From: a virus
DNA length: 64,000 nucleotides
Strand: one strand, 5' to 3'
IMG/VR virus record: IMGVR_UViG_3300025914_000009
Location: 32,001-96,000 of that record
Of the stretch, positions 7,997-44,115 are shown piece after piece. A program made the translations under genes and the position numbers. Under the pieces are notes generated by a model, which saw only the letters and a list, made by a program, of their open reading frames with translations, did no database searches and was not told the origin of the DNA. Positions within the stretch are counted from its first letter, which is position 1. Each line of letters begins with the position of its first letter.

Positions 7997-8329
7997 TTAG
8001 GATTCATCATCCGATTCGAAAGATTCACCTGTTTCATTATAGACAGGCCAGTCTCCCTCACATAGTCTCATTTCAACAACTGCTTTCTCCCATCTTTCAC
8101 AGAGTTCTTCAAAGGATTCAGCTACCAGGATCTTCTCTCCATCATACATCTGGACTATGCTCTTAGTAGAAGTATATCCAATTACCTTATATATTTCCCC
8201 TACCGGAAGGGCCATTGCTCTCCATACCCATTGTTTGGACTTAGCAATGATGCCCATATCCATTTCCTCCAGCTCCATGTCTTCCTCCGAGACAAGCTTT
8301 ACCTTGGCTTTCAGTTTTAATAGACTCAT
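7997..8329 (-). CDS. Hypothetical protein
   Basis: 110 aa ORF coupled to portal stop. Confidence 0.6.
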   Translation of the reverse strand: MSLLKLKAKVKLVSEEDMELEEMDMGIIAKSKQWVWRAMALPVGEIYKVIGYTSTKSIVQMYDGEKILVAESFEELCERWEKAVVEMRLCEGDWPVYNETGESFESDDES

Positions 8330-10917
8330 TATTTAGATTTTGATTTCTTTGCCTGGGCCTTCTTAGCCTTGATATCCATTCTCTTCATCTGGAGCTGAGC
8401 TTGGATTTTCTCCTTATCTAGCGCGATCTTTCTGAGCTCCATCGCAATATAATCATTCGACTCTTTGGCCTTCTGCTGGATTTGAGATAGTTTAAGTTGG
8501 TATTCCCTATCCTTACCAATGCTTTCTTGTGTAAGTCTATTAGCTTCTGCGATATCTTCATCTCCTGCATTTTCAATTGGGTTCATTGCACTTCTTTCTT
8601 TGGCTGCTGCTGCTATTAGAGCAATCTCCTTCTTATTAAGTCTATCCAGCTCATTTTGCCCGGCTTCAAATTCTTTATCTAATTGATCCTGGATGGCTGC
8701 CTGTTCCTGCTCATGCTGGAACATAGCTTGCTGCTGCTGTTGATCCTGTTGCTTAAGCTGTTGTTCTTGTTGCTGCATTGCTTCCATTTTCTCCTTTAAG
8801 GACTTGAATACTTGCTTCATTGTCCTGATAGAGTTGGTAGTATATAGTACAGATATTTCATATGGAGTAGCTCCATTCTGTAGCATTGGTTGAGCAAGCT
8901 GTCTGAGATCTTCAAAGGCTTTTTGATCCTGGGCTCTGGTAGTAACAAATACCTGTAGATCCCTAAGGGTGATGTCTTCAGAGTTAACTCTAATGAAGGC
9001 TTGTTCTCCTTCTGTATTGATATAGGAAATGGTTGACTCTGGTTTCTTTACTTCTATATGCTGAACTGCATCCAGAATAGCTTGATATACATCATTTAAT
9101 ACATACTCATGTTGTGCAAAGTATGGTTCTGTCTGAGCATAGGATTGAGATAAGGCAGTATTTGTACCTGTAGCAGTTTGAGTTGCAGCTACTCCACCTG
9201 TTCTTTCTCTGGTAATACCTACCAGTTCCCATGCTTCCTGTTTAAGCTGCATAGCCAGAGTGTATCTGCTTTGGATTTCAGCAGTCCTTGTCCAGTCTAT
9301 ATTCTTAAACATGTTGAAGTTAGATGGACTCTTCAGGTTTTCAGGAGAGTCATCTACTATAACAACCCCTCTTTTTCTGGCCTCCTGCTCCCAGATATCC
9401 AGTGCATCCTGAGCATCCCCATCCTTAGGGATAGGAATGTGCCTCATAGACATAAGGTACACATTACCAATTTCCTTCTCCAGCAGCTTATAGAGCTGGT
9501 TCATACATACATTGTACAGAATCTGATAAGGTTTTAGTAGGTCAATTAAGCTCTTAGCTTCATTTATGTTCTTGATCTCATGAACTACTCCAATAATAGG
9601 GCAGTAGTTCAGAAGTTCAAAGGGCTCCACATTATATACATCAGATCCAATCTTGTAGCCTTTATACCATTGGTTTATATAGTTCCACTCGATTGATACC
9701 TGGTTTGGTACTCTCTTATAAGACTCATCTACTAAAGTGGTCTGTTCTACTCCCTCTTCGTCCTTAAATATCAGTCTCCCCACTTTCTTTTTTGAGCACC
9801 AATAGGCTTGAACTACTACATACTTATTACCAAAAGTATTTACATTGGATGATAAGCCAAGAAAGTCATTAAGAGGATCCACGTTCTCTTTGAGCATTGA
9901 CTCAACCAGAAGTCTTTGTTGTACTATAAATGGGGAATAAGTATCATATTTGATTGATTCCCATCCACTTACGTTAGGATTCTCAAAGTTCGATTCCCTT
10001 GGGGAGAATAGAGAGAGTTCTCTTACACCTTTTCTTAAGTGATCAATCTCTTTCTTATCCAGATCAAATCTCTCAATAATCTCACTAAGCTCCATTACAT
10101 GCACTGTCCCTGCAGCAAAGGCATCTTTAAGATACTTCTTATCAGGAAGAGTCAAGAACCATACATTCTTTGGGTTTAGATTTTCTACTCCTACCCCCAG
10201 CTTTGAGTTAGTCTCATATATGTGATAGAACTCTCTTGAGCAGATTAAAAGATCTCTAAAGCAATCTTCTGAGATCTCCTTCATGTTCATCTGCATCTTC
10301 ATGGCTTCCAAAACATGATTTCCCCATTTCTCTGCAGTAGAAGTATAGTCAGTCAGATACTCTGATACCTTCTCCATTGTAAGTTGTTCCAGATCCTGAT
10401 CATTAGAAGGACTGCCTTGTCCTTGTACTCCTGACTGAACAGCAATCTTAGACTTAGCTTGTTCCATTATGAATTGCTGTAATATCTCAGTCTTGAATTG
10501 AAGCTCCTCATTTTTTGAATCATCATCAAAAGCCTTAACCCTAGCTACATCTGGTCTTCTTGTAAGCTCTCCTAACATGGTATTCATAGGAGGGTTTAAG
10601 ATAGGATAGTGCTTCACATAGTTAGGGAGTTCTACATCTCTTACTACTGTATCTGCAAAGGATCTAAGTTCAGGATCATCTGTATCATTAATATAGAAAT
10701 CCTGTGGTCTGAGAATCCCCTTTACCAGGTTATAGTTATTTACAAAGGTATCTTTACCTTTAATAAATTGAGAGTAGGCCACATTGGCAAAGTAGTCCAT
10801 ATTGGACTTTATCCAGTCATCTGTTCCTTTCTCTGCTTCTGGTACGAACTGATCAGGATAAATGTTCCACCTTGCCCAGTCAAGGTTCTGATCCTTTGAG
10901 TGAATGATTATAGGCAT
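8329..10917 (-). CDS. Portal protein
   Basis: 862 aa directly after terminase, Gln-rich coiled-coil C-terminus typical of podovirus/crAss portals. Confidence 0.85.
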   Translation of the reverse strand: MPIIIHSKDQNLDWARWNIYPDQFVPEAEKGTDDWIKSNMDYFANVAYSQFIKGKDTFVNNYNLVKGILRPQDFYINDTDDPELRSFADTVVRDVELPNYVKHYPILNPPMNTMLGELTRRPDVARVKAFDDDSKNEELQFKTEILQQFIMEQAKSKIAVQSGVQGQGSPSNDQDLEQLTMEKVSEYLTDYTSTAEKWGNHVLEAMKMQMNMKEISEDCFRDLLICSREFYHIYETNSKLGVGVENLNPKNVWFLTLPDKKYLKDAFAAGTVHVMELSEIIERFDLDKKEIDHLRKGVRELSLFSPRESNFENPNVSGWESIKYDTYSPFIVQQRLLVESMLKENVDPLNDFLGLSSNVNTFGNKYVVVQAYWCSKKKVGRLIFKDEEGVEQTTLVDESYKRVPNQVSIEWNYINQWYKGYKIGSDVYNVEPFELLNYCPIIGVVHEIKNINEAKSLIDLLKPYQILYNVCMNQLYKLLEKEIGNVYLMSMRHIPIPKDGDAQDALDIWEQEARKRGVVIVDDSPENLKSPSNFNMFKNIDWTRTAEIQSRYTLAMQLKQEAWELVGITRERTGGVAATQTATGTNTALSQSYAQTEPYFAQHEYVLNDVYQAILDAVQHIEVKKPESTISYINTEGEQAFIRVNSEDITLRDLQVFVTTRAQDQKAFEDLRQLAQPMLQNGATPYEISVLYTTNSIRTMKQVFKSLKEKMEAMQQQEQQLKQQDQQQQQAMFQHEQEQAAIQDQLDKEFEAGQNELDRLNKKEIALIAAAAKERSAMNPIENAGDEDIAEANRLTQESIGKDREYQLKLSQIQQKAKESNDYIAMELRKIALDKEKIQAQLQMKRMDIKAKKAQAKKSKSK

Positions 10918-10920
10918 CTG

Positions 10921-13017
10921 TTATATAAATAATTTTGATCTTCTTCTACCATTATTATATCTGATTGGAGAAGAGTTTGAGAAGTCGATTACTTTGTTTG
11001 TGCTTTTTTGTCCCTTGAAGTAAGCTTCAAATCTGGGATCTTTCTTTTCTGTGGATACTACGAACTGTGGATTAAGATGATCCGCCAGGGCAATGGCCAG
11101 CTCCGCAGCTACTATACGGTCATAGTTCCCTTCCTCTGAGTTGAAGTTAATAATTTCTTCCAAGAGCATAGGATCAAATACTCTGGTTACTCCCAGGGTC
11201 TCTATATTCTTCTCCTCTTCTCTGAAGATGACATCATCCAGATAAGATTTAAGTAGACCATCCAGGTGGTTCCTGATCCTATCACTCGATCTATGAATAC
11301 CATAATCCCTTCTAACTGAGGTATTTGGAACTATTTCTCTAAGCCAGCTCGGTTGAGGGGCCAGGTATCTTGCAGCTTCTCCTTTCTTGAGCATATAATC
11401 TATAAAGCTATACTCATCATTTTCACAAAGGGTATAGGCATTATAGTACTTAATGAGGAGTCTGGCAGTCTCATTCCACTTGTCTTTACTATCTGGCCTG
11501 GCTACATAAGAAGCTACAAATAGGTTTTGATATCTATCCGAGGCAATGTCATGTACCCTTTTAAAGATATACACTGCCCCAAGGGAGTCTGAATATTCAG
11601 ATCTACTCTGTCTATAAGGGTCAACTCCAGCTGTATAGAGTCCGAATGGTGGTTCATCATCTATTGGGAACTCCCAAATGACTGGAGGAGCATCAAGTGA
11701 AGTTGTGCTATCTGCAGGAAACTTGCTGATTGGTAGTTTATCACTGAACTTATGGCAAATCTTTTCTCCATCATGATATAAGTCTACCGGAGTACCAGTC
11801 TTCCCAAGGGCAGTAAGTCTATTCTTTTGAGCTTTAGCAGCTTCGATATTAAAGTCATTCTTTGTAAGAACCAGGAAGCTATCAGATGGAACCAGAGGCC
11901 AGAAGGCTTTGAACTTCAATACAGTCTTCTGATTACCAGATTTTATAGCTCTTGCATATTCTTTTTCCCACCACTCCCTAGCCTTCTCATAGTTGGTTAC
12001 CAGAATGGTAATTCTTTCTAAGTCAGGGTGTTGTATTCCCAAATAATCAGATAGCTTCATTGGATCCTTGTACTTGATCTTAGCCATTAAGGCATCAATG
12101 AATCTACCCATCTTTGTTCCTGGTATTTCAGGATTATCAAAGGGGAGTATGTTATAGGCTTCAGGGTGAAGGAACACTTCAGATGCCTCTTTACCTTTTT
12201 CCATATCACCCCCAGTGCCTGCTATCATAGCAAGACAGGAAGGTTTATCTTCTTTGGATGTACCAGACCACCAGGCACCTTCAGAGTCTTTGAAACAGGC
12301 AATGAAGTTTCTAATGGTACCAATTTCATCTATAAGATGGAAACCAGGTCTAGCTCCTACTGCTGCATCGCTCTTTGATCCTTCTTCAAAGTTTCTTATC
12401 TGTATAGATGATTGAGAAGATAAAGGAGATGTTATCCCTGTCTTCTTATCTTTCCAACCAGCCTTTATTTCTTTTTTCCAGTCATTAACAATCCTTTGCT
12501 TCTGCAGGATTGGATGTAGATTGATCAGACCATCTTCTACCTTATCAGTAGCAAGCTTGATATATGTACCATTACCTGCACTGATGATAGCTTCTGATTT
12601 GTCAAAGAGAGTGTACTGATAACCAGCTCTTGAGCCAGCCATGATAGATTTCCCGAAGTCACGAGATCCAACCAGGGCATAGAACTTACCTTTCTGTTCA
12701 CATTGAGTAAAGTCATCAGCTATTATCCACTCAATGTCCCTGAGATAGGGAGTATCAATAATTCTGATCTTCTTATTAAGTCTTTCATTTTCAATGTACA
12801 TGGCGATTTTCCAGTACACTGTGTGCCAATAGAGCCATCCAGAAATGTATACTTTCCCATCTGCCAGATAAAAGCCTTCCTTCATCCTACGCTTTTCTTC
12901 AGTCCAGTACTCCCTAAAGGTTTCCATAGCTGCTTCATCTGTAGGATCGTAAATAGGTTCTACCTGGTCGGGGAACCAAATGTTTTTAGTTTTCTGGGTA
13001 TACTTCTGGTCTATCAT
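10921..13017 (-). CDS. terL: Terminase large subunit
   Basis: Walker A-like GSRDFGKS, Walker B LIDEIG, GTGG coupling motif, nuclease GVDPY and YDRIVA. Confidence 0.92.
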   Translation of the reverse strand: MIDQKYTQKTKNIWFPDQVEPIYDPTDEAAMETFREYWTEEKRRMKEGFYLADGKVYISGWLYWHTVYWKIAMYIENERLNKKIRIIDTPYLRDIEWIIADDFTQCEQKGKFYALVGSRDFGKSIMAGSRAGYQYTLFDKSEAIISAGNGTYIKLATDKVEDGLINLHPILQKQRIVNDWKKEIKAGWKDKKTGITSPLSSQSSIQIRNFEEGSKSDAAVGARPGFHLIDEIGTIRNFIACFKDSEGAWWSGTSKEDKPSCLAMIAGTGGDMEKGKEASEVFLHPEAYNILPFDNPEIPGTKMGRFIDALMAKIKYKDPMKLSDYLGIQHPDLERITILVTNYEKAREWWEKEYARAIKSGNQKTVLKFKAFWPLVPSDSFLVLTKNDFNIEAAKAQKNRLTALGKTGTPVDLYHDGEKICHKFSDKLPISKFPADSTTSLDAPPVIWEFPIDDEPPFGLYTAGVDPYRQSRSEYSDSLGAVYIFKRVHDIASDRYQNLFVASYVARPDSKDKWNETARLLIKYYNAYTLCENDEYSFIDYMLKKGEAARYLAPQPSWLREIVPNTSVRRDYGIHRSSDRIRNHLDGLLKSYLDDVIFREEEKNIETLGVTRVFDPMLLEEIINFNSEEGNYDRIVAAELAIALADHLNPQFVVSTEKKDPRFEAYFKGQKSTNKVIDFSNSSPIRYNNGRRRSKLFI

Positions 13018-14290: not shown

Positions 14291-14648
14291 ATCCTCCCTT
14301 TTTGGTTTTCATATAGGCAACTGTGGCCTTGAGCTTTTCCATCATGTTATTCCAAGTCTCCATATTCCTGATTTCCTCAGGTCTATCTTTAAGCTTAGCT
14401 TCCATATTGAAGATAAGTATTTCCAACTTCTGTATCTTCCTTCTAATCTTATTAGGAGAGGTCATGAACTTTCCAAATCCTGAGATCTCTACCTGTTCAT
14501 GATCTACCATTGCATCTCTTGCATCTTTAAACTGAAACATAATAACTTTCTCTACTATGTCTTCAGGAACTAAGGTCTTTATAGCAGTCCTTGTTATAAG
14601 AACACCTTTCAACTTGTCAGCATCTATACTACTCTGATTCTTTTGCAC
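14274..14648 (-). CDS. HU/IHF-like DNA-binding protein
   Basis: QVEISGFGKF signature. Confidence 0.75.
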   Translation of the reverse strand: MQKNQSSIDADKLKGVLITRTAIKTLVPEDIVEKVIMFQFKDARDAMVDHEQVEISGFGKFMTSPNKIRRKIQKLEILIFNMEAKLKDRPEEIRNMETWNNMMEKLKATVAYMKTKKGGYENKS

Positions 14649-14988
14649 TTCCTGCCAGGTTTATTTGTAACTGAATATCTTTTGAAAAGTCAAGAGCAAT
14701 CTTTGGATTCACTCTATATTTCATATCTATCTGTACAAGAAAGCCAGCCTTCACAAGTTCCTGCTTCATATTCTCCAGAGATGCAAGTGAGCTATTAAAC
14801 ATCTCAACAAACTCCTTTCTAGCCGCAGGGGATGTTATGCTCCCTCGGGCAGCTGTGAATGCCAGGAGGTATAGCTGCTTTTGTGGAAGTCTTACTTCAT
14901 TCAGAGCAAGCAGTACAGAATAATACTTTATTGCCTTTTCCACCTCAGTAGCTACCTCTCTTCGTATTTTCTGCACAATTACCTTCAT
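14629..14988 (-). CDS. Putative winged-helix DNA-binding protein
   Basis: LENMKQELVKAGFLVQ...YRVNP pattern. Confidence 0.55.
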   Translation of the reverse strand: MKVIVQKIRREVATEVEKAIKYYSVLLALNEVRLPQKQLYLLAFTAARGSITSPAARKEFVEMFNSSLASLENMKQELVKAGFLVQIDMKYRVNPKIALDFSKDIQLQINLAGSAKESE

Positions 14989-15098
14989 GTAGCTTGGTTT
15001 TCTTTTACAAAGTTATGGGCTTTTTTGGAAGTAATATATAACTCTTTGGGATGTAATGCTATAAAAAGCAAAAATCCTCCCAATATGAGAGGATCTTG

Positions 15099-15170
15099 AG
15101 GCAGATATCTGAATCGAACAGATGTATAGGGCTTTTGCAGAACCCGACCTTTCCACTTGGCTAATCTGCC
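15099..15170 (-). tRNA. tRNA-Cys(GCA)
   Basis: Cloverleaf, loop CT-GCA-AA, TTCGA T-loop. Confidence 0.9.
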
Positions 15171-15173
15171 TTA

Positions 15174-15249
15174 TGCACGTATCGGGGGAATCGAACCCAG
15201 TCCTCCTACAGTTTTGGAGACTGCTTGGCCACCATGGCCTGACACGTGT
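15174..15249 (-). tRNA. tRNA-Trp(CCA)
   Basis: Loop CT-CCA-AA. Confidence 0.85.
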
Positions 15250-15253
15250 GTAG

Positions 15254-15324
15254 ACTACCCTGCAAGATTCGAACTTGCGTTCTAACATCCGTAGTGTTGA
15301 GTCCTTCCACTGAACGAAGGGTAG
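15254..15324 (-). tRNA. tRNA-Arg(ACG)
   Basis: Loop CT-ACG-GA. Confidence 0.9.
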
Positions 15325-15327
15325 TGG

Positions 15328-15398
15328 GGTGGAGTGCAGAGTCGAACTGCCTTACCTGGTTCACAGCCAAGTCCATTCACCGAATTGGTATCTCCACA
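15328..15398 (-). tRNA. tRNA-His(GTG)
   Basis: Loop CT-GTG-AA; ends approximate. Confidence 0.85.
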
Positions 15399-15399
15399 G

Positions 15400-15471
15400 A
15401 TGCCCCTGGAGGAATCGAACCTACCATCATGAGATCCAAAAGCTCACGCCCTTCCATTGTGCTAAGGGGCA
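15400..15471 (-). tRNA. tRNA-Gln(TTG)
   Basis: Loop TT-TTG-GA with a 31:39 mismatch. Confidence 0.8.
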
Positions 15472-15482
15472 TTAAAAAAATG

Positions 15483-15554
15483 TGGTACAGAGTGGACTTG
15501 AACCACCAACGCCCAGCTCTTCAGGCTGGCGCTCTACATTGGAGCTACTGCACC
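15483..15554 (-). tRNA. tRNA-Phe(GAA)
   Basis: CCAGC CT-GAA-GA GCTGG. Confidence 0.92.
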
Positions 15555-15559
15555 ATATG

Positions 15560-15631
15560 AGCCTGAGCAGGAACTCGAATCCTGTTCTGATGCTTACAAG
15601 GCAACTGCACCACCATCAGTGCTTCTCAGGC
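15560..15631 (-). tRNA. tRNA-Thr(TGT)
   Basis: Loop CT-TGT-AA. Confidence 0.88.
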
Positions 15632-15636
15632 TTATG

Positions 15637-15712
15637 TTGGGTGAATAGGATTCGAACCTACGCTTTCAGCCTCCCAAAGGCTGCCGGAAAAACCTGGCTT
15701 CCGTACCACCCA
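15637..15712 (-). tRNA. tRNA-Pro(TGG)
   Basis: CAGCC TT-TGG-GA GGCTG. Confidence 0.9.
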
Positions 15713-15715
15713 ATA

Positions 15716-15752
15716 TAAAAGAAAAACCCCCAGTCTTGGTAGAAAGGGGGTT
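15716..15752 (-). terminator. Attenuator terminator of tRNA operon A
   Basis: AACCCCC...GGGGGTT followed by TTTCTTTT between leader ORF and first tRNA. Confidence 0.8.
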
Positions 15753-15773
15753 GACATGCAAGAGCTTTATATC

Positions 15774-15848
15774 CTATACATACATGACAACTCCCTTCCC
15801 TGGTTGAGGGCAGAAGGTAAACCACGTATGACGAAATACTTTATTCAT
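15774..15848 (-). CDS. Leader peptide A (MNKVFRHTWFTFCPQPGKGVVMYV)
   Basis: 24 aa ORF just after promoter; codons 5-16 use only F,R,H,T,W,C,P,Q, the downstream tRNA set. Confidence 0.85.
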   Translation of the reverse strand: MNKVFRHTWFTFCPQPGKGVVMYV

Positions 15849-15852
15849 AATG

Positions 15853-15884
15853 CAAATATATGGTGAATATTTTAATCCACCAAA
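15853..15884 (-). promoter_or_regulatory. Bacteroidota sigmaA promoter, tRNA operon A
   Basis: TTTG-N20-TATATTTG. Confidence 0.85.
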
Positions 15885-15890
15885 AAAAAG

Positions 15891-15975
15891 TTGCACAGGT
15901 CAGATTCGAACTGACAAAGGCTAAAGCCCCGAGTTTTACAGACTCAGAAGGATCTCCCACTCCTGTCGCAGTGCA
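15891..15975 (-). tRNA. tRNA-Tyr(GTA)
   Basis: Loop CT-GTA-AA, long variable arm. Confidence 0.85.
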
Positions 15976-15980
15976 ATGTA

Positions 15981-16065
15981 AGAGGAGAGCAGTGGCCCTG
16001 ATCCACATCCCCGAGGGAACAGTCAGCTTAGCAGGCTGCTCCTACATCGTGTAGGTTTACTCTCC
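15981..16065 (-). tRNA. tRNA-Ser(GCT)
   Basis: Loop CT-GCT-AA, long variable arm, atypical T-loop. Confidence 0.8.
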
Positions 16066-16072
16066 TTATAAG

Positions 16073-16165
16073 AGGAAGGCTGAGGACTCGAACCCCACTC
16101 CTGCTCATCGCCGAGCCCTAGTTTTCAAGACTAGTCGCCGCTCCTGTGCAGCTGCATAACCTTCC
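16073..16165 (-). tRNA. tRNA-Ser(TGA)
   Basis: CTAGT CT-TGA-AA ACTAG, long variable arm. Confidence 0.88.
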
Positions 16166-16171
16166 TTATAG

Positions 16172-16245
16172 TATCCCTGGTAGGACTTGAACCTACAGAA
16201 CTCAGATTTTAAGTCTGATATGGTTACCTATTACATCACAGGGAT
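16172..16245 (-). tRNA. tRNA-Leu(TAA), short variable arm
   Basis: TCAGA CT-TAA-AA TCTGA. Confidence 0.85.
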
Positions 16246-16250
16246 AAGTG

Positions 16251-16323
16251 TACCGAGGATGGGATTCGAACCCACACTTTTCAGTTCCTAAGACTGTTGC
16301 CTCTCCCGTTGGGCTACCAAGGT
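16251..16323 (-). tRNA. tRNA-Leu(TAG), short variable arm
   Basis: Loop CT-TAG-GA. Confidence 0.85.
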
Positions 16324-16327
16324 ATGT

Positions 16328-16363
16328 AAAACAAAAAACCCAGCTGTAGAAACAGACTGGGCT
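16328..16363 (-). terminator. Attenuator terminator of tRNA operon B
   Basis: GCCCAGTCTGTTTCTACAGCTGGGTTTTTTG on minus strand. Confidence 0.8.
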
Positions 16364-16385
16364 AAAAAATAAAGTCTAATGAACT

Positions 16386-16454
16386 TTACATACTATACCC
16401 AGCCTGTCTGTGTAACAGGAGTGAACTGGAATAGTATGATAGAAGATTGAACAT
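16386..16454 (-). CDS. Leader peptide B (MFNLLSYYSSSLLLHRQAGYSM)
   Basis: 22 aa ORF just after promoter; codons 4-14 are only Leu/Ser/Tyr, the downstream tRNA set. Confidence 0.85.
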   Translation of the reverse strand: MFNLLSYYSSSLLLHRQAGYSM

Positions 16455-16458
16455 GATG

Positions 16459-16490
16459 CAAATGTAATAACTCTTTTTGAATTTTCCAAA
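16459..16490 (-). promoter_or_regulatory. Bacteroidota sigmaA promoter, tRNA operon B
   Basis: TTTG-N20-TACATTTG. Confidence 0.85.
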
Positions 16491-16499
16491 TAATTCTAG

Positions 16500-16573
16500 T
16501 GGAGCTAAAGAGAATCGAACTCTTCTCAGGCTCCTTGCAAGGGAGCTTCGCCAGCCTTGGAACATGTAACCCC
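16500..16573 (-). tRNA. tRNA-Ala(TGC)
   Basis: GCTCC CT-TGC-AA GGAGC; G3:U70 present. Confidence 0.9.
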
Positions 16574-16679
16574 TAAATCTGAAGCATAACCTTTCTACCT
16601 TCTCTGTAAACAGCTTTATTACAGTTATGAAATTGTATACCAGTAGATTGTACATGCTCCAGAGGTTCTTTCAAACCAG

Positions 16680-16752
16680 TTGCCTGAGGTGGGATCGAAC
16701 CACCAGCCTTCTTCGTATCAGGAAGTTGCTCAGACCATTGAGCTACCAGGCA
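16680..16752 (-). tRNA. tRNA-Ile(GAT)
   Basis: Loop CT-GAT-AC. Confidence 0.88.
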
Positions 16753-16844
16753 ATTTGATATAGGGGAAGAGGTGGTTCTTACACAGCCCACCTTCAGAAG
16801 TGTGCTTCTTCCAGGTTTTCACCCTCCCCCACTATATCTTCTAG

Positions 16845-16918
16845 TTGTCCCTAAGGGAGTTGAACCCTTGATCTTCTCATTATGAGTGAGCTGCTCTGAC
16901 CACCTGAGCTAAGGGACG
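16845..16918 (-). tRNA. tRNA with CAT anticodon, probably Ile2 (lysidine type)
   Basis: Loop CT-CAT-AA; body CCCTTAGCTCAG..GGTCAGAGCAG resembles bacterial Ile2; leader C contains an ATA codon. Confidence 0.75.
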
Positions 16919-16925
16919 ATTTGAG

Positions 16926-16998
16926 CCGAGAGTGGGGGATTCGAACCCCAACCTTCACCTTGACAGGGTGATACTGCAGCCATTACACCACACCCTCG
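16926..16998 (-). tRNA. tRNA-Asp(GTC)
   Basis: TCACC CT-GTC-AA GGTGA; ends approximate. Confidence 0.85.
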
Positions 16999-17087
16999 GA
17001 TTAGCCACATGCCGGACAATTACTTGACTGCTGTTAGAAACCAGCTGGTTTCCATCTTTTTTGTCCGCATGTAGCTTTAATTATTTG

Positions 17088-17161
17088 TACTCCCAGTGGG
17101 AATTGAACCCTACATTTTTACCTTGAAAGGGTAATGTCCTTACCATTTAGACGATGGGAGC
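17088..17161 (-). tRNA. tRNA-Glu(TTC)
   Basis: TTACC CT-TTC-AA GGTAA. Confidence 0.9.
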
Positions 17162-17182
17162 ATAGCTCCTCACCCTCCTTTA

Positions 17183-17395
17183 TTACATTAGCCATCTTAT
17201 CAATAGTTTAGCCTCCATTACTGGAAGAAATTTCGCATCCTGTATGTCCCCCAGGGGAATGGAGAAATTAATGATTCCATCAATAGAACCTGTCCAAAGG
17301 TTAGTCATGTACAGCATCCTTTCTTTATCCACATACAAAAGCTCAGCCTTTGGATTTTTCTTATACAACTCCTTTTTAATTTCATTTAGTTCCAT
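17183..17395 (-). CDS. Hypothetical protein inside tRNA operon C
   Basis: MELNEIKKELYK...; start taken just after tRNA-Gly. Confidence 0.65.
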   Translation of the reverse strand: MELNEIKKELYKKNPKAELLYVDKERMLYMTNLWTGSIDGIINFSIPLGDIQDAKFLPVMEAKLLIRWLM

Positions 17396-17396
17396 G

Positions 17397-17467
17397 AGCA
17401 CCAACAGGGAGTCGAACCCTGCTCTCAGGCTTGGAAGGCTAGTGCATTACCGAAATGCTTCTGGTGC
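17397..17467 (-). tRNA. tRNA-Gly(TCC)
   Basis: Loop CT-TCC-AA. Confidence 0.85.
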
Positions 17468-17518
17468 ATAGAGGGGGACAGGTTATTTAATCCTTTAAGG
17501 GACTCCCCCAGACCCTGG

Positions 17519-17593
17519 TTGCGGGAGAGGGAATCGAACCCTCGTAGTTCAGCTTATGAGACTGAGCTGGCACCATCTCCAGTCTACCCCGCA
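17519..17593 (-). tRNA. tRNA-Met(CAT)
   Basis: TCAGT CT-CAT-AA GCTGA; fMet-like acceptor TGCGGGG but no triple G-C anticodon stem. Confidence 0.8.
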
Positions 17594-17841
17594 ATCTTTA
17601 ATTGTTTCTTTTCCTCCTCTGTCAAATCATAATCCTCTTTTACCAAAGTCAAAATTAAGTTAAGTTCCTCAGCAAATCTAATTCTTCCTCTAAAGACTAT
17701 TTCATCAAACCTCTTATTTCTGATAGACACTATACTAAAATCATGAGAGTCATTTTTTAATATAGTTATCTGATAAGAATCATCATGAAACTGCCATGGC
17801 AACCTCTGCTCGAAACCTAGTTCTAACAAGTGCTCTTTCAT
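17584..17841 (-). CDS. Hypothetical protein inside tRNA operon C
   Basis: 85 aa ORF between tRNA-Asn and tRNA-Met. Confidence 0.6.
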   Translation of the reverse strand: MKEHLLELGFEQRLPWQFHDDSYQITILKNDSHDFSIVSIRNKRFDEIVFRGRIRFAEELNLILTLVKEDYDLTEEEKKQLKIAG

Positions 17842-17842
17842 G

Positions 17843-17915
17843 AGGACAGTTTAGGGATCGAACCTAAGACCTAAGAGTTAACAGCTCTTTGCTACTGCCA
17901 CTGAGCTAACTGTCC
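17843..17915 (-). tRNA. tRNA-Asn(GTT)
   Basis: AAGAG CT-GTT-AA CTCTT. Confidence 0.9.
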
Positions 17916-17959
17916 ATTTCCAGTTTTGTACTCCACGCAGATACTGGTAAACTGACCTG

Positions 17960-18031
17960 AGGACTTACAAGGAATCCAACCTTGATAGCTTGCTTAGAAG
18001 GCAAGAGCTCTATGCATTGAGCTATAAGTCC
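17960..18031 (-). tRNA. tRNA-Arg(TCT)
   Basis: CTTGC CT-TCT-AA GCAAG. Confidence 0.88.
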
Positions 18032-18034
18032 ATG

Positions 18035-18107
18035 TTGTCCCACTTAGAATCGAACTAAGGTCGCTAGTTTGTAAGACTAGAGCACTCAACCACTGTGCTA
18101 TAGGACA
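18035..18107 (-). tRNA. tRNA-Val(TAC)
   Basis: CTAGT CT-TAC-AA ACTAG. Confidence 0.9.
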
Positions 18108-18113
18108 ATCTTG

Positions 18114-18185
18114 TTCCCCTGGAAGGGCTCGAACCTTCAACCTTCTCCTTAAGAGGGAGTAGCTCTACCATTAAGCTACAGAGGA
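18114..18185 (-). tRNA. tRNA-Lys(CTT)
   Basis: Loop CT-CTT-AA. Confidence 0.88.
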
Positions 18186-18197
18186 ATTTTATCTCTG

Positions 18198-18268
18198 TAC
18201 CCCCACCAAGGATCGAACTTGGTTCCACTGGTTAAAAGCCAGTTACTTCACCATAAAGCTTTGAGGGT
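18198..18268 (-). tRNA. tRNA-Lys(TTT)
   Basis: ACTGG CT-TTT-AA CCAGT. Confidence 0.88.
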
Positions 18269-18274
18269 AATTGT

Positions 18275-18312
18275 AAACAAAAATCCCCAGAGCTTATGGG
18301 CTCCAGGGACTC
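18275..18312 (-). terminator. Attenuator terminator of tRNA operon C
   Basis: GAGTCCCTGGAGC-CCATAA-GCTCTGGGGA-TTTTTG. Confidence 0.8.
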
Positions 18313-18334
18313 TTGTTTGCTGTTTATAAACCTG

Positions 18335-18415
18335 TTAATTAGCAGACAGTGGAATCCCTGGAGCAGATTTCTCTGCACCTCTTACAATCCCATTATCCAC
18401 TATTGAGTAAAACAT
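18335..18415 (-). CDS. Leader peptide C (MFYSIVDNGIVRGAEKSAPGIPLSAN)
   Basis: 26 aa ORF after promoter; codons 5-16 use only I,V,D,N,G,R(AGA),A,E,K, the downstream tRNA set. Confidence 0.85.
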   Translation of the reverse strand: MFYSIVDNGIVRGAEKSAPGIPLSAN

Positions 18416-18438
18416 TGTTTGCTTTTTTAAGATTTTAG

Positions 18439-18470
18439 CAAATATAATACCACTTTTTGACATGGCCAAA
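18439..18470 (-). promoter_or_regulatory. Bacteroidota sigmaA promoter, tRNA operon C
   Basis: TTTG-N20-TATATTTG. Confidence 0.85.
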
Positions 18471-18478
18471 TAATTCCA

Positions 18479-18898
18479 CTACTTTTTTTCTCCTAGCTCC
18501 CCTGGGGAAGATAGCTGATTAGAGTCACAAATTATACCCAGGACTGGCTGACCTATCTTCCCTGAACTCTGCCTCTTCTCCATAAACTCATCCAGCTTAG
18601 CTTCAAACTTCTTCCTTGGCCAGGTACACACAAACTCTCCATACATATCACTGACCACAATAGTCAGATCAAATCCTCCTTCAGCTACCTCCTCTACCTT
18701 CCTCTCTCTGGAAAATCCATCATGCCACATAAGCTTATGAAGATCTCTGGCAGGTATCCTAACCCAACCAGTAATCCAATCTATTGGCACAGGCTCCTCA
18801 GTAGTATCTTTATCTTCCTGTTCCATAGCCTTCTTAACAGAGAATCCATCATATATCTTCATAGGAAAGCTAAAGAACTCTTCAGTGAATTTACCCAT
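18479..18898 (-). CDS. Hypothetical protein
   Basis: 139 aa ORF with its own promoter. Confidence 0.7.
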   Translation of the reverse strand: MGKFTEEFFSFPMKIYDGFSVKKAMEQEDKDTTEEPVPIDWITGWVRIPARDLHKLMWHDGFSRERKVEEVAEGGFDLTIVVSDMYGEFVCTWPRKKFEAKLDEFMEKRQSSGKIGQPVLGIICDSNQLSSPGELGEKK

Positions 18899-18913
18899 AC
18901 TTTATATTTTATT

Positions 18914-18945
18914 CAAAGGTAATACGTTATAGTGGAATTTCCAAA
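18914..18945 (-). promoter_or_regulatory. Bacteroidota sigmaA promoter
   Basis: TTTG-N20-TACCTTTG. Confidence 0.8.
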
Positions 18946-19771
18946 TGGTGAATAAGTGAGAGAGACCTGTCAGTACTTATAGTACTTGCCCCTGGGAGTA
19001 CTTGGAAGTTAATAGATTTGAGCCCCCTACTAACGGTAGGTATCAGAAAAACTCGGGGTTTTGTCTCATAGGCTTTTTATATAACCTATTGATATATAAT
19101 TACTTAATCCCAATATCTTCGGTTAACCATGTTTTAAAACTTATGTATATCTATGAGTATGATGGTGACACCATCCCTTGACCCCTTGGCAAAATCGTCG
19201 TGCTGGGGGTATCCCCCCATGACCCCTTGGGGAAAGTGCGATTCAGATTATGTCACATCGCCTTGAAAATCAAGGATTTATGTTTTAAGGAGTCGAACCA
19301 AAGCCAGAGGTTGGGAACCAGTAGTACCAATACAGCGTGAGGAAAGCTCCTTATACATATATATAATGGTATAACCCTAAAACCCCATCAACATGGTACT
19401 AACAGCAGTCATAACAACAGCTTTAATAGTCTCTGCATTCATTTGGAACCACAAGATGAACAGAGCTAAGTGATTGATACACAATGAATTGGGACGGTCA
19501 GAGAGAGTTTGAGTACACTTTACAACTCATAACTCTCTCATTTTCTATTACTTAGTTAACCTGATGAGGAATAGTATACATTATGGCATTTATTACACCA
19601 CTACATATATGTTATCTACTATATTCCCTTAGGGAGGATATAGATAACCTTTTAGAGCTCAATATTAAAATGGTCTTCAAGCAGGGCTAAAATACTGTGA
19701 ATACTACAGAAAACAGTAGTTAGTTGACCTATTTTCGAATTAAATTTCTTCAACAATAAAACATCAAGACA

Positions 19772-27590: not shown

Positions 27591-27663
27591 GGGTGTGTAG
27601 CTCAATGGATAGAGTGTCTGACTTCGGATCAGAAAGTTAAGGGTTCGAATCCCTTCATGCCCA
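27591..27663 (+). tRNA. tRNA-Arg(TCG)
   Basis: Canonical cloverleaf, TCTGA CT-TCG-GA TCAGA. Confidence 0.92.
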
Positions 27664-27855
27664 CAGGTTTTATGGCTAATGGTGTTTGATTAGTATTGCA
27701 AGAATTTAGCAATAATCAGTACTATTAAACGCGCCCTGAGTTTCTACTTGGGGCTCTTTTTTATTAACAAACTTAGTTTTTTTTTTAGAGCATATAATCG
27801 TTAGAGCCCTCTTGTGTCTACAGGAGGGCATTTTTAACCAAAAAAACCAAAAATT

Positions 27856-44008: not shown

Positions 44009-44102
44009 GGCGAAGTATGCAAATTGGTAAAGCAGTCCTCGTTGAGAGGATGGGACTAAATTCTGGGTAATGTCCATGGTAGTTCGAATCTATCCCTCGC
44101 CA
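44009..44102 (+). ncRNA. Leu-type tRNA-like RNA with non-canonical anticodon loop
   Basis: Acceptor GGCGAAG/CCTCGCC, D loop AAATTGGTAAA, long variable arm, loop CGTTGAG lacks U33. Confidence 0.6.
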
Positions 44103-44115
44103 CTAAAATTCTTTT

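What the first reader, a model, noticed from the sequence alone, without database searches (positions are those of the whole stretch)
15099..18470. Three phage tRNA operons, each gated by a codon-matched leader-peptide attenuator
Seen: 25 tRNAs fall into three groups. Each group is preceded by a Bacteroidota promoter, a 22-26 codon ORF, and a GC hairpin plus U-tract. In each leader an 11-12 codon block (codons ~4-16) uses only the amino acids of that operon's tRNAs, and isoacceptors match too: CGT in leader A with Arg(ACG), AGA in leader C with Arg(TCT). The 3' part of each leader is complementary to the 5' arm of its terminator. Established: this is the trp/his-type attenuator layout. Inference: ribosome stalling on any depleted, uncharged or cleaved tRNA would switch on the operon that resupplies it, giving a sensor of the whole tRNA pool and possibly a counter to anticodon-nuclease defences. 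I know of no description of this for tRNA operons.
Basis: partly seen in the sequence, partly recalled or inferred. Interest (0 to 1): 0.97.

Follow-up and report, generated by a model that had tools for sequence, protein, structure and literature searches.

The report
Codon-sensing switches gating phage tRNA operons
This phage places a tiny test gene, written in the amino acids of the tRNAs that follow it, and a switchable stop signal in front of each block of its tRNA genes, so it probably makes tRNAs only when ribosomes run short of them, a control I found no paper describing for tRNA genes.

Summary
On the minus strand, 25 tRNA genes for all 20 amino acids form three units. Each has a TTTG/TAnnTTTG promoter, a leader ORF of 26, 22 or 24 codons, and a hairpin plus U-tract.

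- **Leader blocks:** IVDNGIVRGAEK, LLSYYSSSLLL and FRHTWFTFCPQP use only, and nearly all of, the amino acids of the tRNAs downstream. None of 300,000 random partitions of the amino acids did as well.
- **RNA structure:** the leaders fold as classical four-region attenuators. The leader-1 antiterminator has compensatory changes in 8 of 13 pairs.
I found 38 such units in 16 related phage contigs, including the cultured Leptolyngbya phage Lbo-JY46.
  - tRNA-Cys in operon 1: Cys codons appear in leader 1.
  - tRNA-Asp/Asn in operon 3, and tRNA-Arg(ACG) in operon 1: the leader codons follow.
  - One lineage has a two-operon partition with matching leaders.
- **Exceptions exist:** Lys(CUU), Leu(CAA), and one deletion variant.

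There are no expression data, so stall-induced readthrough and the anti-defence role are inferred. My paper searches found no description of this control for tRNA genes. This scan's notes report the same kind of system in other phages.

The parts
18439..18470 (-). Promoter-like box of unit 1 (TTTG-N20-TATATTTG); 23 nt to the ATG
18335..18415 (-). Leader ORF 1, 26 codons + stop (MFYSIVDNGIVRGAEKSAPGIPLSAN)
18368..18403 (-). Sensor block 1, codons 5-16 (IVDNGIVRGAEK); also strand '1' of the 1:2 hairpin
18352..18364 (-). Region 2 of unit 1: 13 nt inside the ORF that pair with the terminator's 5' arm (antiterminator)
   Evidence: 8 of 13 pairs with compensatory changes
18275..18312 (-). Regions 3 and 4 of unit 1: terminator hairpin (-16.1 kcal/mol) and U-tract
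16499..18268 (-). Operon 1: tRNAs Lys ttt, Lys ctt, Val tac, Arg tct, Asn gtt, Met cat, Gly tcc, Glu ttc, Asp gtc, Met or Ile2 cat, Ile gat, Ala tgc. Two small ORFs are embedded (17584-17841, 17183-17395).
16459..16490 (-). Promoter-like box of unit 2 (TTTG-N20-TACATTTG); 4 nt to the ATG, so the mRNA is probably leaderless
   Evidence: box position -12 to -5 from PMC9723704 passage
16386..16454 (-). Leader ORF 2, 22 codons + stop (MFNLLSYYSSSLLLHRQAGYSM). Sensor block is codons 4-14 (16413-16445). Region 2 lies at about 16396-16411.
16331..16364 (-). Terminator 2 (-12.3 kcal/mol) and U-tract
15890..16323 (-). Operon 2: tRNAs Leu tag, Leu taa, Ser tga, Ser gct, Tyr gta (all the long-variable-arm tRNAs)
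15853..15884 (-). Promoter-like box of unit 3 (TTTG-N20-TATATTTG); 4 nt to the ATG
15774..15848 (-). Leader ORF 3, 24 codons + stop (MNKVFRHTWFTFCPQPGKGVVMYV). Sensor block is codons 5-16 (15801-15836). Region 2 lies at about 15781-15795.
15719..15760 (-). Region 3, terminator 3 (-13.5 kcal/mol) and U-tract
15098..15712 (-). Operon 3: tRNAs Pro tgg, Thr tgt, Phe gaa, Gln ttg, His gtg, Arg acg, Trp cca, Cys gca
15063..15095 (-). Hairpin plus U-tract that closes the array
   Evidence: read

Best explanation
Each unit is a ribosome-mediated (leader-peptide) transcription attenuator in front of a tRNA operon.

**Proposed mechanism.**
1. Transcription starts at the unit's promoter. In units 2 and 3 it starts at, or within a few bases of, the AUG.
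2. A ribosome translates the 22-26-codon leader while RNA polymerase moves towards a hairpin plus U-tract about 50 nt beyond the stop codon.
3. Codons about 4-16 sample, once to three times each, the amino acids (and for Arg the codon family) of the tRNAs encoded downstream.
4. If all are decoded quickly, the ribosome runs onto the leader's 3' part (region 2). The terminator (3:4) then forms and the operon stays off.
5. If any sampled codon is decoded slowly, the ribosome stalls on the block. The block is also strand 1 of a 1:2 hairpin, so region 2 is left free to pair with the terminator's 5' arm. Polymerase then reads into the tRNA genes.

The result would be demand-driven negative feedback on the supply of exactly those tRNAs.

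**Shown:** the parts, their conservation, the alternative pairings with co-variation, and the co-evolution of leader composition with operon content.

**Inferred:** translation of the ORFs, the direction of the switch, and what depletes the tRNAs in nature (codon-usage demand, host shut-off or tRNA-cleaving defences).
For: **(1) Anatomy in the window.**
- Promoter boxes, ORFs, terminators.
- Whole leaders fold better than 200 dinucleotide shuffles: z = -4.6, -5.7 and -2.4, with 0, 0 and 1 shuffles as good.

**(2) Fit of leader to operon.**
- Runs of 12, 11 and 12 codons with full coverage of the operon's amino acids.
- 0 of 300,000 random partitions match, in each of the 5 phages tested.

**(3) Family.**
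- 38 leader units in 16 phage contigs, with TerL identity to the window from 86% down to 33%.
- Terminators were found in 38 of 38 units, at -8.1 to -21.2 kcal/mol. The stop-to-U-tract distance is 44-63 nt in 37 of 38.

**(4) Composition, not sequence, is kept.**
- Leader 2 reads LLSYYSSSLLL, LSYSSLYLL, LSYYSSLLSLLS, SYYSSLSLLS and YLLSYLSSLSY in different phages.

**(5) Co-variation.**
- tRNA-Cys in operon 1 (Lbo-JY46, L103): leader 1 has 6 and 4 Cys codons, and leader 3 has 0 and 1. In the 7 phages whose leader 1 was seen and whose tRNA-Cys is not in operon 1, leader 1 has 0 Cys. The 7 leaders 3 that precede a tRNA-Cys have 1-6 Cys codons.
- L104 has no tRNA-Cys in operon 3 and no Cys in leader 3.
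- L106 has tRNA-Asp/Asn in operon 3 and tRNA-Arg(acg) in operon 1. Its leader 3 is MINNWHNTFNNFTPDQQD..., with 6 Asn, 3 Asp and no Arg. Its leader 1 has no Asp or Asn but carries both AGA and CGC.
- L085 has two operons, P Q H R L L S Y E and A D N W T R M K I M F V G C. Their leaders contain ..LSLHSSRPYQQLSLL.. and ..NNWFNIIDTAFATRNCGKVGI...
- Its relative L081 lacks tRNA-Ile and tRNA-Val in that operon, and its leader has no Ile or Val.
- Each of 5 phages' leaders fits its own partition best: summed runs of 35-40 against 23-34 for differing partitions.
- Over all units, the amino acid is present in codons 2-20 of the leader in 241 of 246 operon-tRNA cases, against 164 of 457 cases without such a tRNA. 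This is not corrected for kinship.
- Matched runs have a median of 12 (n=37). Mismatched runs within the same phage have a median of 2 (n=60).

**(6) Antiterminator of unit 1.**
- 13 pairs, 113 of 117 cells paired, 8 pairs with changes on both sides.
- 0 of 500 shuffles reach this. Sliding the partner by 1-3 columns gives at most 60% paired.
- The changes alter the peptide there (SAPG, SALG, GSGF), as expected for an RNA constraint rather than a peptide constraint.

**(7) Stall model.**
- With a ribosome's A site at codons 2 to about 14-16, the nascent RNA pairs the terminator's 5' arm upstream. With the ribosome further 3', it does not.

**(8) tRNA level rather than amino-acid level.**
- The Arg codon family follows the Arg isoacceptor in the operon: AGR only in 10 of 10 leaders before tRNA-Arg(tct) alone, and CGN in the leaders before tRNA-Arg(acg).

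**(9) Precedents.**
- Leader-peptide attenuation is reported for amino-acid operons of a flavobacterium, and the TAnnTTTG box sits at -12 to -5 (PMC9723704, passages).
- Leaderless short ORFs act as attenuators in mycobacteria (10.1101/834739, start of abstract in the listing).
Against: **No data on transcripts, 3' ends or ribosome occupancy.**

**Mismatches between leader and operon.**
- tRNA-Lys(ctt) (5 of 5 phages examined) and tRNA-Leu(caa) (2 of 2) have no cognate codon in their leader.
- tRNA-Glu at the end of the first operon of L081/L085 has no Glu codon in that leader's block.
- G002 has lost the Val, Arg(tct) and Asn tRNAs from operon 1, yet keeps a leader identical to G001's.
- Leader 2 of Lbo-JY46, L046 and L109 keeps Tyr codons although no tRNA-Tyr was detected downstream. 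Detection of these odd tRNAs is imperfect.
- Leader of L107 has a Ser and a Thr codon inside its block without matching tRNAs.

**Geometry and sensitivity.**
- Each amino acid is sampled only 1-3 times, unlike the tandem runs of classical leaders, so sensitivity is unknown.
- In my footprint model the last 2-4 block codons lie too close to region 2 to allow the antiterminator.
- The match between block end and permissive window is loose: r = 0.30, with 29 of 37 within 2 codons.
- In leader 1 the stop codon lies 5 or more codons beyond region 2, unlike trpL.

**Promoter, polymerase and host.**
- 12 of 38 units have no strict TAnnTTTG box within 75 nt. Those units must be read from upstream, and how their ORFs would be initiated is open.
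- The polymerase that reads these promoters and the host are unknown.
Confidence: 0.8

Rival explanations
1. Same parts, opposite logic. Translation of the leader is needed to open the 1:2 hairpin, so the operon is ON while translation runs well and OFF when ribosomes are absent or stalled. This would be feed-forward coupling of tRNA synthesis to translation activity.
For: The 1:2 hairpin plus terminator is the minimum-free-energy state of the untranslated leader. A leader with no ribosome on it would therefore terminate, and a ribosome passing over strand 1 transiently frees region 2.
Against: This does not explain why the block must sample exactly the operon's own amino acids, or why it follows tRNA gains and losses. 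Any codons would open the hairpin. In the stall scan, the antiterminator is lost once the ribosome reaches the 3' part.
Confidence: 0.08
2. The leaders sense amino-acid starvation of the host (uncharged tRNA in general), as classical attenuators do. They would tie phage tRNA output to nutrient state rather than to the amount of tRNA.
For: Ribosome stalling cannot tell a missing tRNA from an uncharged one. The mechanism is the same as in amino-acid operons (PMC1183508, start of abstract in the listing).
Against: - Making more tRNA does not relieve amino-acid starvation.
- The Arg codon family in each leader follows the Arg isoacceptor gene downstream. Both families appear in L106 leader 1, where both genes lie in operon 1. 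That fits a tRNA-level match, not an amino-acid-level match.
Confidence: 0.08
3. The short ORFs are independent small genes with their own terminators, encoding peptides that act by themselves. The tRNAs would then be transcribed by leak-through or from other promoters, and the match to the tRNAs would be a by-product.
For: Each has its own promoter-like box and terminator. Leader peptides acting in trans are known in another bacterium (abstract starts in the listing).
Against: - Peptide sequence is not conserved, only composition.
- The 3' part changes its amino acids so as to keep RNA pairing.
- No promoter-like box lies between terminator and first tRNA in the window.
- A by-product would not track five or more rearrangements.
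Confidence: 0.03
4. Chance or compositional artefact: purine-first against pyrimidine-first codons forced by the RNA hairpins.
For: In the window's partition, operon 1 holds amino acids with A/G-starting codons. Operon 3 holds mostly C/U-starting ones (genetic code).
Against: - 0 of 300,000 partitions did as well.
- 1 to 4 of 725 window ORFs reach such runs, the real leaders included.
- L106 and L085 leaders mix A- and C/U-starting codons exactly as their operons do.
Confidence: 0.01

Closest known systems
Multivalent leader-peptide transcription attenuators of enterobacterial amino-acid operons (thr leader sampling Thr and Ile; ilv leaders sampling Ile, Val and Leu). These details are recalled. 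The general mechanism is as stated in the start of the abstract of PMC1183508 (listing).
   Same: - A short translated leader with regulatory codons.
- A terminator hairpin plus U-tract.
- Mutually exclusive 1:2, 2:3 and 3:4 pairings.
- More than one amino acid sampled.
   Different: - The regulated genes are tRNA genes, not biosynthetic enzymes.
- 3 to 13 different amino acids are sampled, mostly once to three times each, instead of tandem runs.
- Together the leaders cover the whole code.
- Two of the three leaders are probably leaderless mRNAs.
- No Rfam leader family matches at E <= 1.
Leaderless polycysteine short ORFs acting as cysteine-responsive attenuators in mycobacteria (10.1101/834739; only the start of the abstract was seen)
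   Same: The sensor ORF starts at the 5' end of the transcript, and its codon content sets the expression of downstream genes.
   Different: One amino acid is sensed, and cysteine-metabolism genes are regulated. It is a bacterial system, not a phage one. I did not read its mechanism.
T-box riboswitches (recalled)
   Same: They sense the state of a specific tRNA and switch a terminator/antiterminator pair.
   Different: A T-box binds the uncharged tRNA directly, without a ribosome, and controls synthetase and amino-acid genes. No T-box match was found in the region at E <= 1, and here an ORF is conserved.
Inducible long tRNA array (trn operon) of Anabaena PCC 7120, silent until translation is impaired (PMC8421152) and repressed by the protein TrcR (PMC10272220). 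Abstract starts and passages were seen.
   Same: An extra tRNA gene array switched on when translation runs badly. Homing-endonuclease genes lie inside the arrays.
   Different: Control there is by a DNA-binding repressor. The words 'attenuat' and 'leader' occur 0 times in the main text of either paper. It has a single operon and is not codon-resolved.
The same kind of unit noted by this scan in other phages (notes e1-371813, e1-5618024, e1-5714076, e1-5785563, e1-6071400, e1-5496268). These are AI notes, not publications.
   Same: A promoter, a short ORF written in the amino acids of the downstream tRNAs, and a terminator in front of phage tRNA blocks.
   Different: They lie on other genomes. 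No look-alike stretch of this locus is on record in the scan. I did not re-examine those loci.

Membership tests
Ribosome-mediated (leader-peptide) transcription attenuators | A short ORF with a start codon lies between the promoter and the first regulated gene, and is kept in relatives | tested here: met
   38 units in 16 phage contigs, ORFs of 20-36 codons. One uses GTG.
Ribosome-mediated (leader-peptide) transcription attenuators | Regulatory codons in the ORF are cognate to what the operon supplies | tested here: met
   Blocks are confined to the operon's amino acids and follow rearrangements. What is supplied here is tRNA, not an amino acid.
Ribosome-mediated (leader-peptide) transcription attenuators | An intrinsic terminator lies between the ORF and the first regulated gene | tested here: met
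   38 of 38 units, -8.1 to -21.2 kcal/mol with a U-tract
Ribosome-mediated (leader-peptide) transcription attenuators | An antiterminator pairing excludes the terminator | tested here: met
   - Unit 1: 13 pairs, 8 with compensatory changes, 0 of 500 shuffles.
- Unit 2: 36 of 40 cells paired, 2 pairs compensatory, 54 of 500 shuffles as high.
- Unit 3: per-sequence folds only.
Ribosome-mediated (leader-peptide) transcription attenuators | A 1:2 hairpin sequesters the antiterminator strand when no ribosome stalls | tested here: met
   Present in the minimum-free-energy folds. ORF-only z-scores are -3.4, -4.0 and -2.0.
Ribosome-mediated (leader-peptide) transcription attenuators | Readthrough rises when the cognate charged tRNA is scarce | not testable with these tools
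   This needs Term-seq, reporters or in-vitro coupled transcription-translation.
Ribosome-mediated (leader-peptide) transcription attenuators | The regulated genes encode amino-acid biosynthesis, transport or aminoacyl-tRNA synthetase functions | tested here: not met
   Downstream are tRNA genes and two small ORFs without family hits. This is why I file it as a new variant.
Rfam leader families (His, Trp, Thr, Leu and other leaders) | A match to a curated covariance model | tested here: not met
   cmscan of 14500-19000 on both strands at E <= 1 gave only tRNA-like and plastid-model hits.
T-box riboswitch | A specifier loop and T-box sequence that bind tRNA, matched by the Rfam model | tested here: not met
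   No match at E <= 1
TrcR-repressed tRNA L-array (Anabaena type) | A TrcR-type repressor gene and its operator at the array's promoter | not tested
   I did not search for a TrcR relative or operator.

The most novel reading that the evidence does not exclude
The leaders together form a phage-borne, codon-resolved gauge of the infected cell's whole decoding capacity. It would work as an OR-gate: slow decoding at any one of 8-13 codon classes opens the operon that carries the matching tRNA. This would keep phage translation running under codon-usage mismatch or host shut-off, and in particular when host defences cut tRNAs (anticodon nucleases). The genetic code would be split into two or three sensor-and-supply modules that co-evolve.
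Probability: 0.3. Interest if true: 0.95.

Novelty: new variant of a known kind. Interest (0 to 1): 0.9.

Why it matters
**Regulation of tRNA genes.** From recall, tRNA genes are thought to be controlled at promoters (growth rate, stringent response) or, in one cyanobacterial array, by a repressor (PMC10272220). A ribosome-read sensor that reports on the tRNA pool and feeds back on tRNA transcription would be a new regulatory principle for tRNA genes. It would also be the broadest multivalent attenuator known.

**Function of phage tRNA arrays.** It bears on a long-standing question: what phage tRNA arrays are for, and when they are used. It also offers a testable link to tRNA-targeting defence systems.

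**Strength of the comparative signal.** Leader composition follows tRNA gene moves across at least five lineages. That is the kind of evidence that usually precedes experimental proof.

**A cultured member.** A cultured member (Leptolyngbya phage Lbo-JY46, PP438436.1) makes bench tests possible.

**Practical uses.**
- The leaders give a sequence rule for finding the boundaries and regulation of tRNA operons in metagenomic phages.
- They offer a compact natural part for building sensors of codon-specific translation speed.

Tried and rejected
**Comparative searches that gave little**
- **GenBank phages by DNA:** 438 records, all tRNA-sized hits and none covering 80% of the query. The best hit, crAss-like cr111_1 (L001), has a 27-tRNA array but no matching leader in my crude scan (best run 3).
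- **tRNA-Ala pattern:** this led to two unrelated phages, G004 and G005. Their arrays show no leader units, so I used them as negative controls. One 8-codon run in G004 looks like chance.
- **Leader-1 motif scans:** 6 of 10 viral hits were copies of one unrelated sequence. 8 of 16 metagenome hits carried no leader unit (7 had no tRNA on the matched strand).
- **TerL relatives:**
  - L004 and L005 (59-63% identity): ARAGORN called no tRNA in them at default settings. The relaxed scan gave 3 minus-strand calls in L004 and 2 tRNA-Gln calls in L005. The Rfam tRNA model matched 3 places in L004's record and none in L005's.
  - Most of the 72 loci have few or no tRNAs in the 10 kb fetched. I did not search their whole records.
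- **Genome-contig scan:** one locus in a MAG, giving no host clue.
- **G002's other tRNAs:** Thr(cgt), a tca-anticodon tRNA and one odd call. There is no Leu/Ser/Tyr operon there.

**Expression data**
- **The look-up of sequencing runs:** no RNA holder was listed.

**Weak or unfinished analyses**
- A strict 'unique maximum' within-phage assignment gave only 146 of 196 (71.8 expected), because ties count as failures.
- The correlation of block end with the permissive window is weak: r = 0.30, with two outliers caused by a mis-called tRNA and a noisy fold.
- The alignment of unit 3 is too gappy in the spacer to count antiterminator pairs.
- The careful TerL tree did not finish. Only the quick tree was seen, and L064 was not in it.
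- The script stopped with an error after part of unit 2. It was completed.

**Literature**
- Searches listed no paper on leader-peptide or attenuator control of tRNA genes. I saw listings only (titles and starts of abstracts).
- I read passages of PMC9723704, PMC8421152 and PMC10272220.
- 'Lbo-JY46' occurs in 0 papers of the library.
- Supplements were not consulted.

Full report
**What is in the window**

The window is part of a 124,983-bp virus record. Its large terminase (10921-13017, minus) and portal gene (8329-10917, minus) match phage families.

Upstream of them, on the same strand, lie 25 tRNA genes between 15098 and 18268.
- ARAGORN at default settings.
- Four more appear at a relaxed threshold: Trp cca, Ser gct, Ser tga and Ala tgc. 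All four have default-level counterparts in relatives.
- Rfam's tRNA model reaches its cut-off for 20 of the 25.

Read in the direction of transcription, the array is cut into three units. Each unit begins with TTTG-N20-TAnnTTTG. Only 4 such motifs occur in 64 kb, against 1.86 expected, and 3 of them are these. An ATG ORF of 26, 22 or 24 codons follows. A GC hairpin with a U-tract lies 47-51 nt after the stop. A last hairpin plus U-tract closes the array at 15063-15095.

**The match**

| Unit | tRNAs in the operon | Block in the leader |
|---|---|---|
| 1 | Lys, Lys, Val, Arg(tct), Asn, Met, Gly, Glu, Asp, Met/Ile2, Ile, Ala | IVDNGIVRGAEK |
| 2 | Leu, Leu, Ser, Ser, Tyr | LLSYYSSSLLL |
| 3 | Pro, Thr, Phe, Gln, His, Arg(acg), Trp, Cys | FRHTWFTFCPQP |

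- Each block uses only its operon's amino acids and contains all of them. Met is the start codon.
- Cross-wise runs against the other operons' sets are 1-6.
- Of 725 ATG ORFs of 15-45 codons in the window, 4, 1 and 1 reach such runs, the leaders themselves included.
- None of 300,000 random partitions of the amino acids into sets of the same sizes did as well, in any of five phages.
- Arg is AGA before tRNA-Arg(tct) and CGT before tRNA-Arg(acg).
- Of all anticodon species examined in five phages, only Lys(ctt) and Leu(caa) lack a cognate codon in their leader.

**RNA structure**

Whole leaders fold more stably than shuffles, with z = -4.6, -5.7 and -2.4.
- The minimum-free-energy fold is a long hairpin inside the ORF, in which the sensor block pairs with the ORF's 3' part, followed by the terminator.
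- When the terminator's 3' arm is left out, the ORF's 3' part pairs with the terminator's 5' arm instead.

This is the 1:2, 2:3, 3:4 scheme of classical attenuators.

In an alignment of nine unit-1 leaders, RNAalifold picks the 2:3 helix as the consensus.
- It has 13 pairs, and 8 of them show changes on both sides.
- 113 of 117 cells are paired, and 0 of 500 column shuffles reach this.
- At most 60% of cells pair when the partner is slid by 1-3 columns.
- The peptide encoded there changes (SAPG, SALG, GSGF) while pairing is kept.

For unit 2 the same helix is 90% paired, with two compensatory pairs. That is not beyond shuffles (54 of 500).

I also ran a simple footprint model, masking the RNA up to 10 nt beyond the A-site codon. 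It predicts that the antiterminator forms when a ribosome sits at codons 2 to about 14-16, and not further 3'. The block thus lies where a stall would open the operon, although its last 2-4 codons fall outside that window.

**Translation start**

In a flavobacterium the sigma-A box TAnnTTTG lies at -12 to -5, and 5.5% of its mRNAs are leaderless (PMC9723704, passages).

Of the 38 units, 26 have a strict box within 75 nt upstream:
- 11 have a 4-nt spacer to the start codon, which puts the start codon at +1;
- 5 have 6-7 nt;
- 10 have 15-31 nt (mostly leader 1).

The remaining 12 have no strict box. Some have near-consensus boxes, and some directly follow a tRNA or an ORF.

**Relatives**

I found further units by four routes:
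- a terminase search;
- a leader-1 motif scan of viral and metagenome contigs;
- a tRNA pattern;
- a tblastn against GenBank phages.

In all there are 38 units in 16 phage contigs, plus near-identical copies in G002, L049, L051, L053, L058/L061, L086 and L108. Terminase identity to the window runs from 86% to 33%.

The closest named phage is Leptolyngbya phage Lbo-JY46. It shares 35% terminase identity and the same gene order, and its record names L. boryana as host. crAss-like phages follow at about 27%.

All 38 units have a terminator. Operon order differs between phages: 1-2-3 in the window and L002, and 3-1-2 in G001, G003 and L046. Homing-endonuclease genes are inserted in some arrays.

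Peptide sequence is not kept, but composition is. Leader 2, for example, reads LLSYYSSSLLL, LSYSSLYLL, LSYYSSLLSLLS, SYYSSLSLLS, YYSLSLLSSL or YLLSYLSSLSY. Where tRNA genes have moved, the leaders have followed.
- **(a) Cys.** In Lbo-JY46 and L103, tRNA-Cys lies in operon 1.
  - Their leader 1 has 6 and 4 Cys codons, and their leader 3 has 0 and 1.
  - In the 7 phages whose leader 1 was seen and whose tRNA-Cys is not in operon 1, leader 1 has no Cys.
  - The 7 leaders 3 that precede a tRNA-Cys have 1-6 Cys codons.
- **(b) No Cys.** L104 has no tRNA-Cys in operon 3 and no Cys in leader 3.
- **(c) Asp, Asn and Arg in L106.** The Asp and Asn tRNAs lie in operon 3, and tRNA-Arg(acg) lies in operon 1.
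  - Leader 3 reads MINNWHNTFNNFTPDQQD... and has no Arg.
  - Leader 1 reads ..VIIAGRGAERIVK.., has no Asp or Asn, and carries both an AGA and a CGC codon.
- **(d) A two-operon partition in L085/L086.**
  - P Q H R L L S Y E follows ..LSLHSSRPYQQLSLL..
  - A D N W T R M K I M F V G C follows ..NNWFNIIDTAFATRNCGKVGI...
- **(e) Ile and Val.** The relative L081 lacks the Ile and Val tRNAs in that operon, and its leader has no Ile or Val.

Summary figures:
- Each of five phages' leaders fits its own partition best.
- The amino acid is present in codons 2-20 of the leader in 241 of 246 cases where the operon has its tRNA, against 164 of 457 where it has not. This Fisher test is not corrected for kinship.
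- A quick terminase tree places the leader-gated arrays in at least five separate lineages (the careful search did not finish).

**What speaks against a perfect rule**
- G002 has lost three tRNAs from operon 1 without any change in its leader.
- tRNA-Glu of L081/L085 is not sampled by the preceding leader.
- Tyr codons persist in leader 2 of three phages in which I detected no tRNA-Tyr.
- L107 has two off-set codons inside its block.
- Lys(ctt) and Leu(caa) are not sampled.

Some of these may be detection failures. Several tRNAs of this clade escape default detection.

**Reading**

The best explanation is ribosome-mediated attenuation that senses how fast the codons served by the downstream tRNAs are decoded, and so sets the transcription of those tRNA genes. 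I put this at about 0.8.
- The parts, their alternative pairings and their co-evolution are shown.
- Translation, the direction of the switch and the natural trigger are inferred.
- That the Arg codon family follows the Arg isoacceptor favours tRNA-level sensing over amino-acid-level sensing.
- A role against tRNA-cleaving defences is possible but has no evidence here.

**Known relatives and novelty**
- No Rfam leader family or T-box matches the region at E <= 1.
- Seven literature searches listed no account of leader-peptide control of tRNA genes.
- The nearest in print is the translation-stress-induced tRNA array of Anabaena. It is controlled by the repressor TrcR, and neither paper mentions a leader or attenuation.
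- This scan's own notes report the same kind of unit in several other phages. Those are unpublished AI notes, and I did not re-test them.
- I file it as a new variant of a known kind: a classical attenuator mechanism with a new class of regulated genes and a new sensing logic.

Noticed in passing
window 17584-17841 (-) and 17183-17395 (-): Two small ORFs (85 and about 70 codons) sit between tRNAs inside operon 1 and start 1-2 nt after a tRNA end. Both are kept in L002. Neither has a PHROG family hit.
   Followed up: partly
window about 16574-16678, 16753-16843, 16999-17086 (-): Spacers of 80-100 nt between tRNAs of operon 1 have no Rfam match at E <= 1. Most other spacers are under 15 nt.
   Followed up: no
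L007 about 5790-5838 (-); L041 oriented 1611-1673: A Gly/Cys/Lys-rich short ORF lies just upstream of the leader-3 promoter in G001 and G003. Its GGCGC stretch resembles the tail of leader 1 in Lbo-JY46 and L103.
   Followed up: no
L046 5439-5510; L134 (G002): Suppressor-type tRNAs occur in relatives. An anticodon-cta tRNA with its own promoter-like box lies beside the array. An anticodon-tca tRNA is in G002. These hint at stop-codon recoding in parts of the clade.
   Followed up: no
L007 (G001), 5480-5600 (-) and elsewhere in the array: HNH-type endonuclease genes are inserted in the tRNA arrays. Right after terminator 3, what looks like the 5' half of a tRNA is followed by such an insert.
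   Followed up: no
L062 9073-9146 (PP438436.1 123072-123145): The record's second 'tRNA-Cys' (ARAGORN anticodon aca) aligns with the window's tRNA-Val(tac). It can be drawn with a 5-bp anticodon stem, C33 and anticodon UAC, so it is probably a tRNA-Val.
   Followed up: partly
L062 (Lbo-JY46) leaders; window 18470, 16490, 15884: Boxes of the Bacteroidota sigma-A type (TTTG / TAnnTTTG) also head the leaders of a phage whose record names a cyanobacterial host. The host or the polymerase that reads these boxes is therefore open.
   Followed up: no
window 15098-18268: In this partition, operon 2 holds exactly the long-variable-arm tRNAs (Leu, Ser, Tyr). Operon 1 holds amino acids whose codons start with A or G. 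Operon 3 holds those starting with C or U, plus Thr (plus the genetic code). Other lineages break this pattern.
   Followed up: partly
window 27591-27664 (+) and 44009-44103 (+): A tRNA-Arg(tcg) and a 95-nt call of tRNA-Gln(ttg) lie outside the three operons, on the other strand.
   Followed up: no
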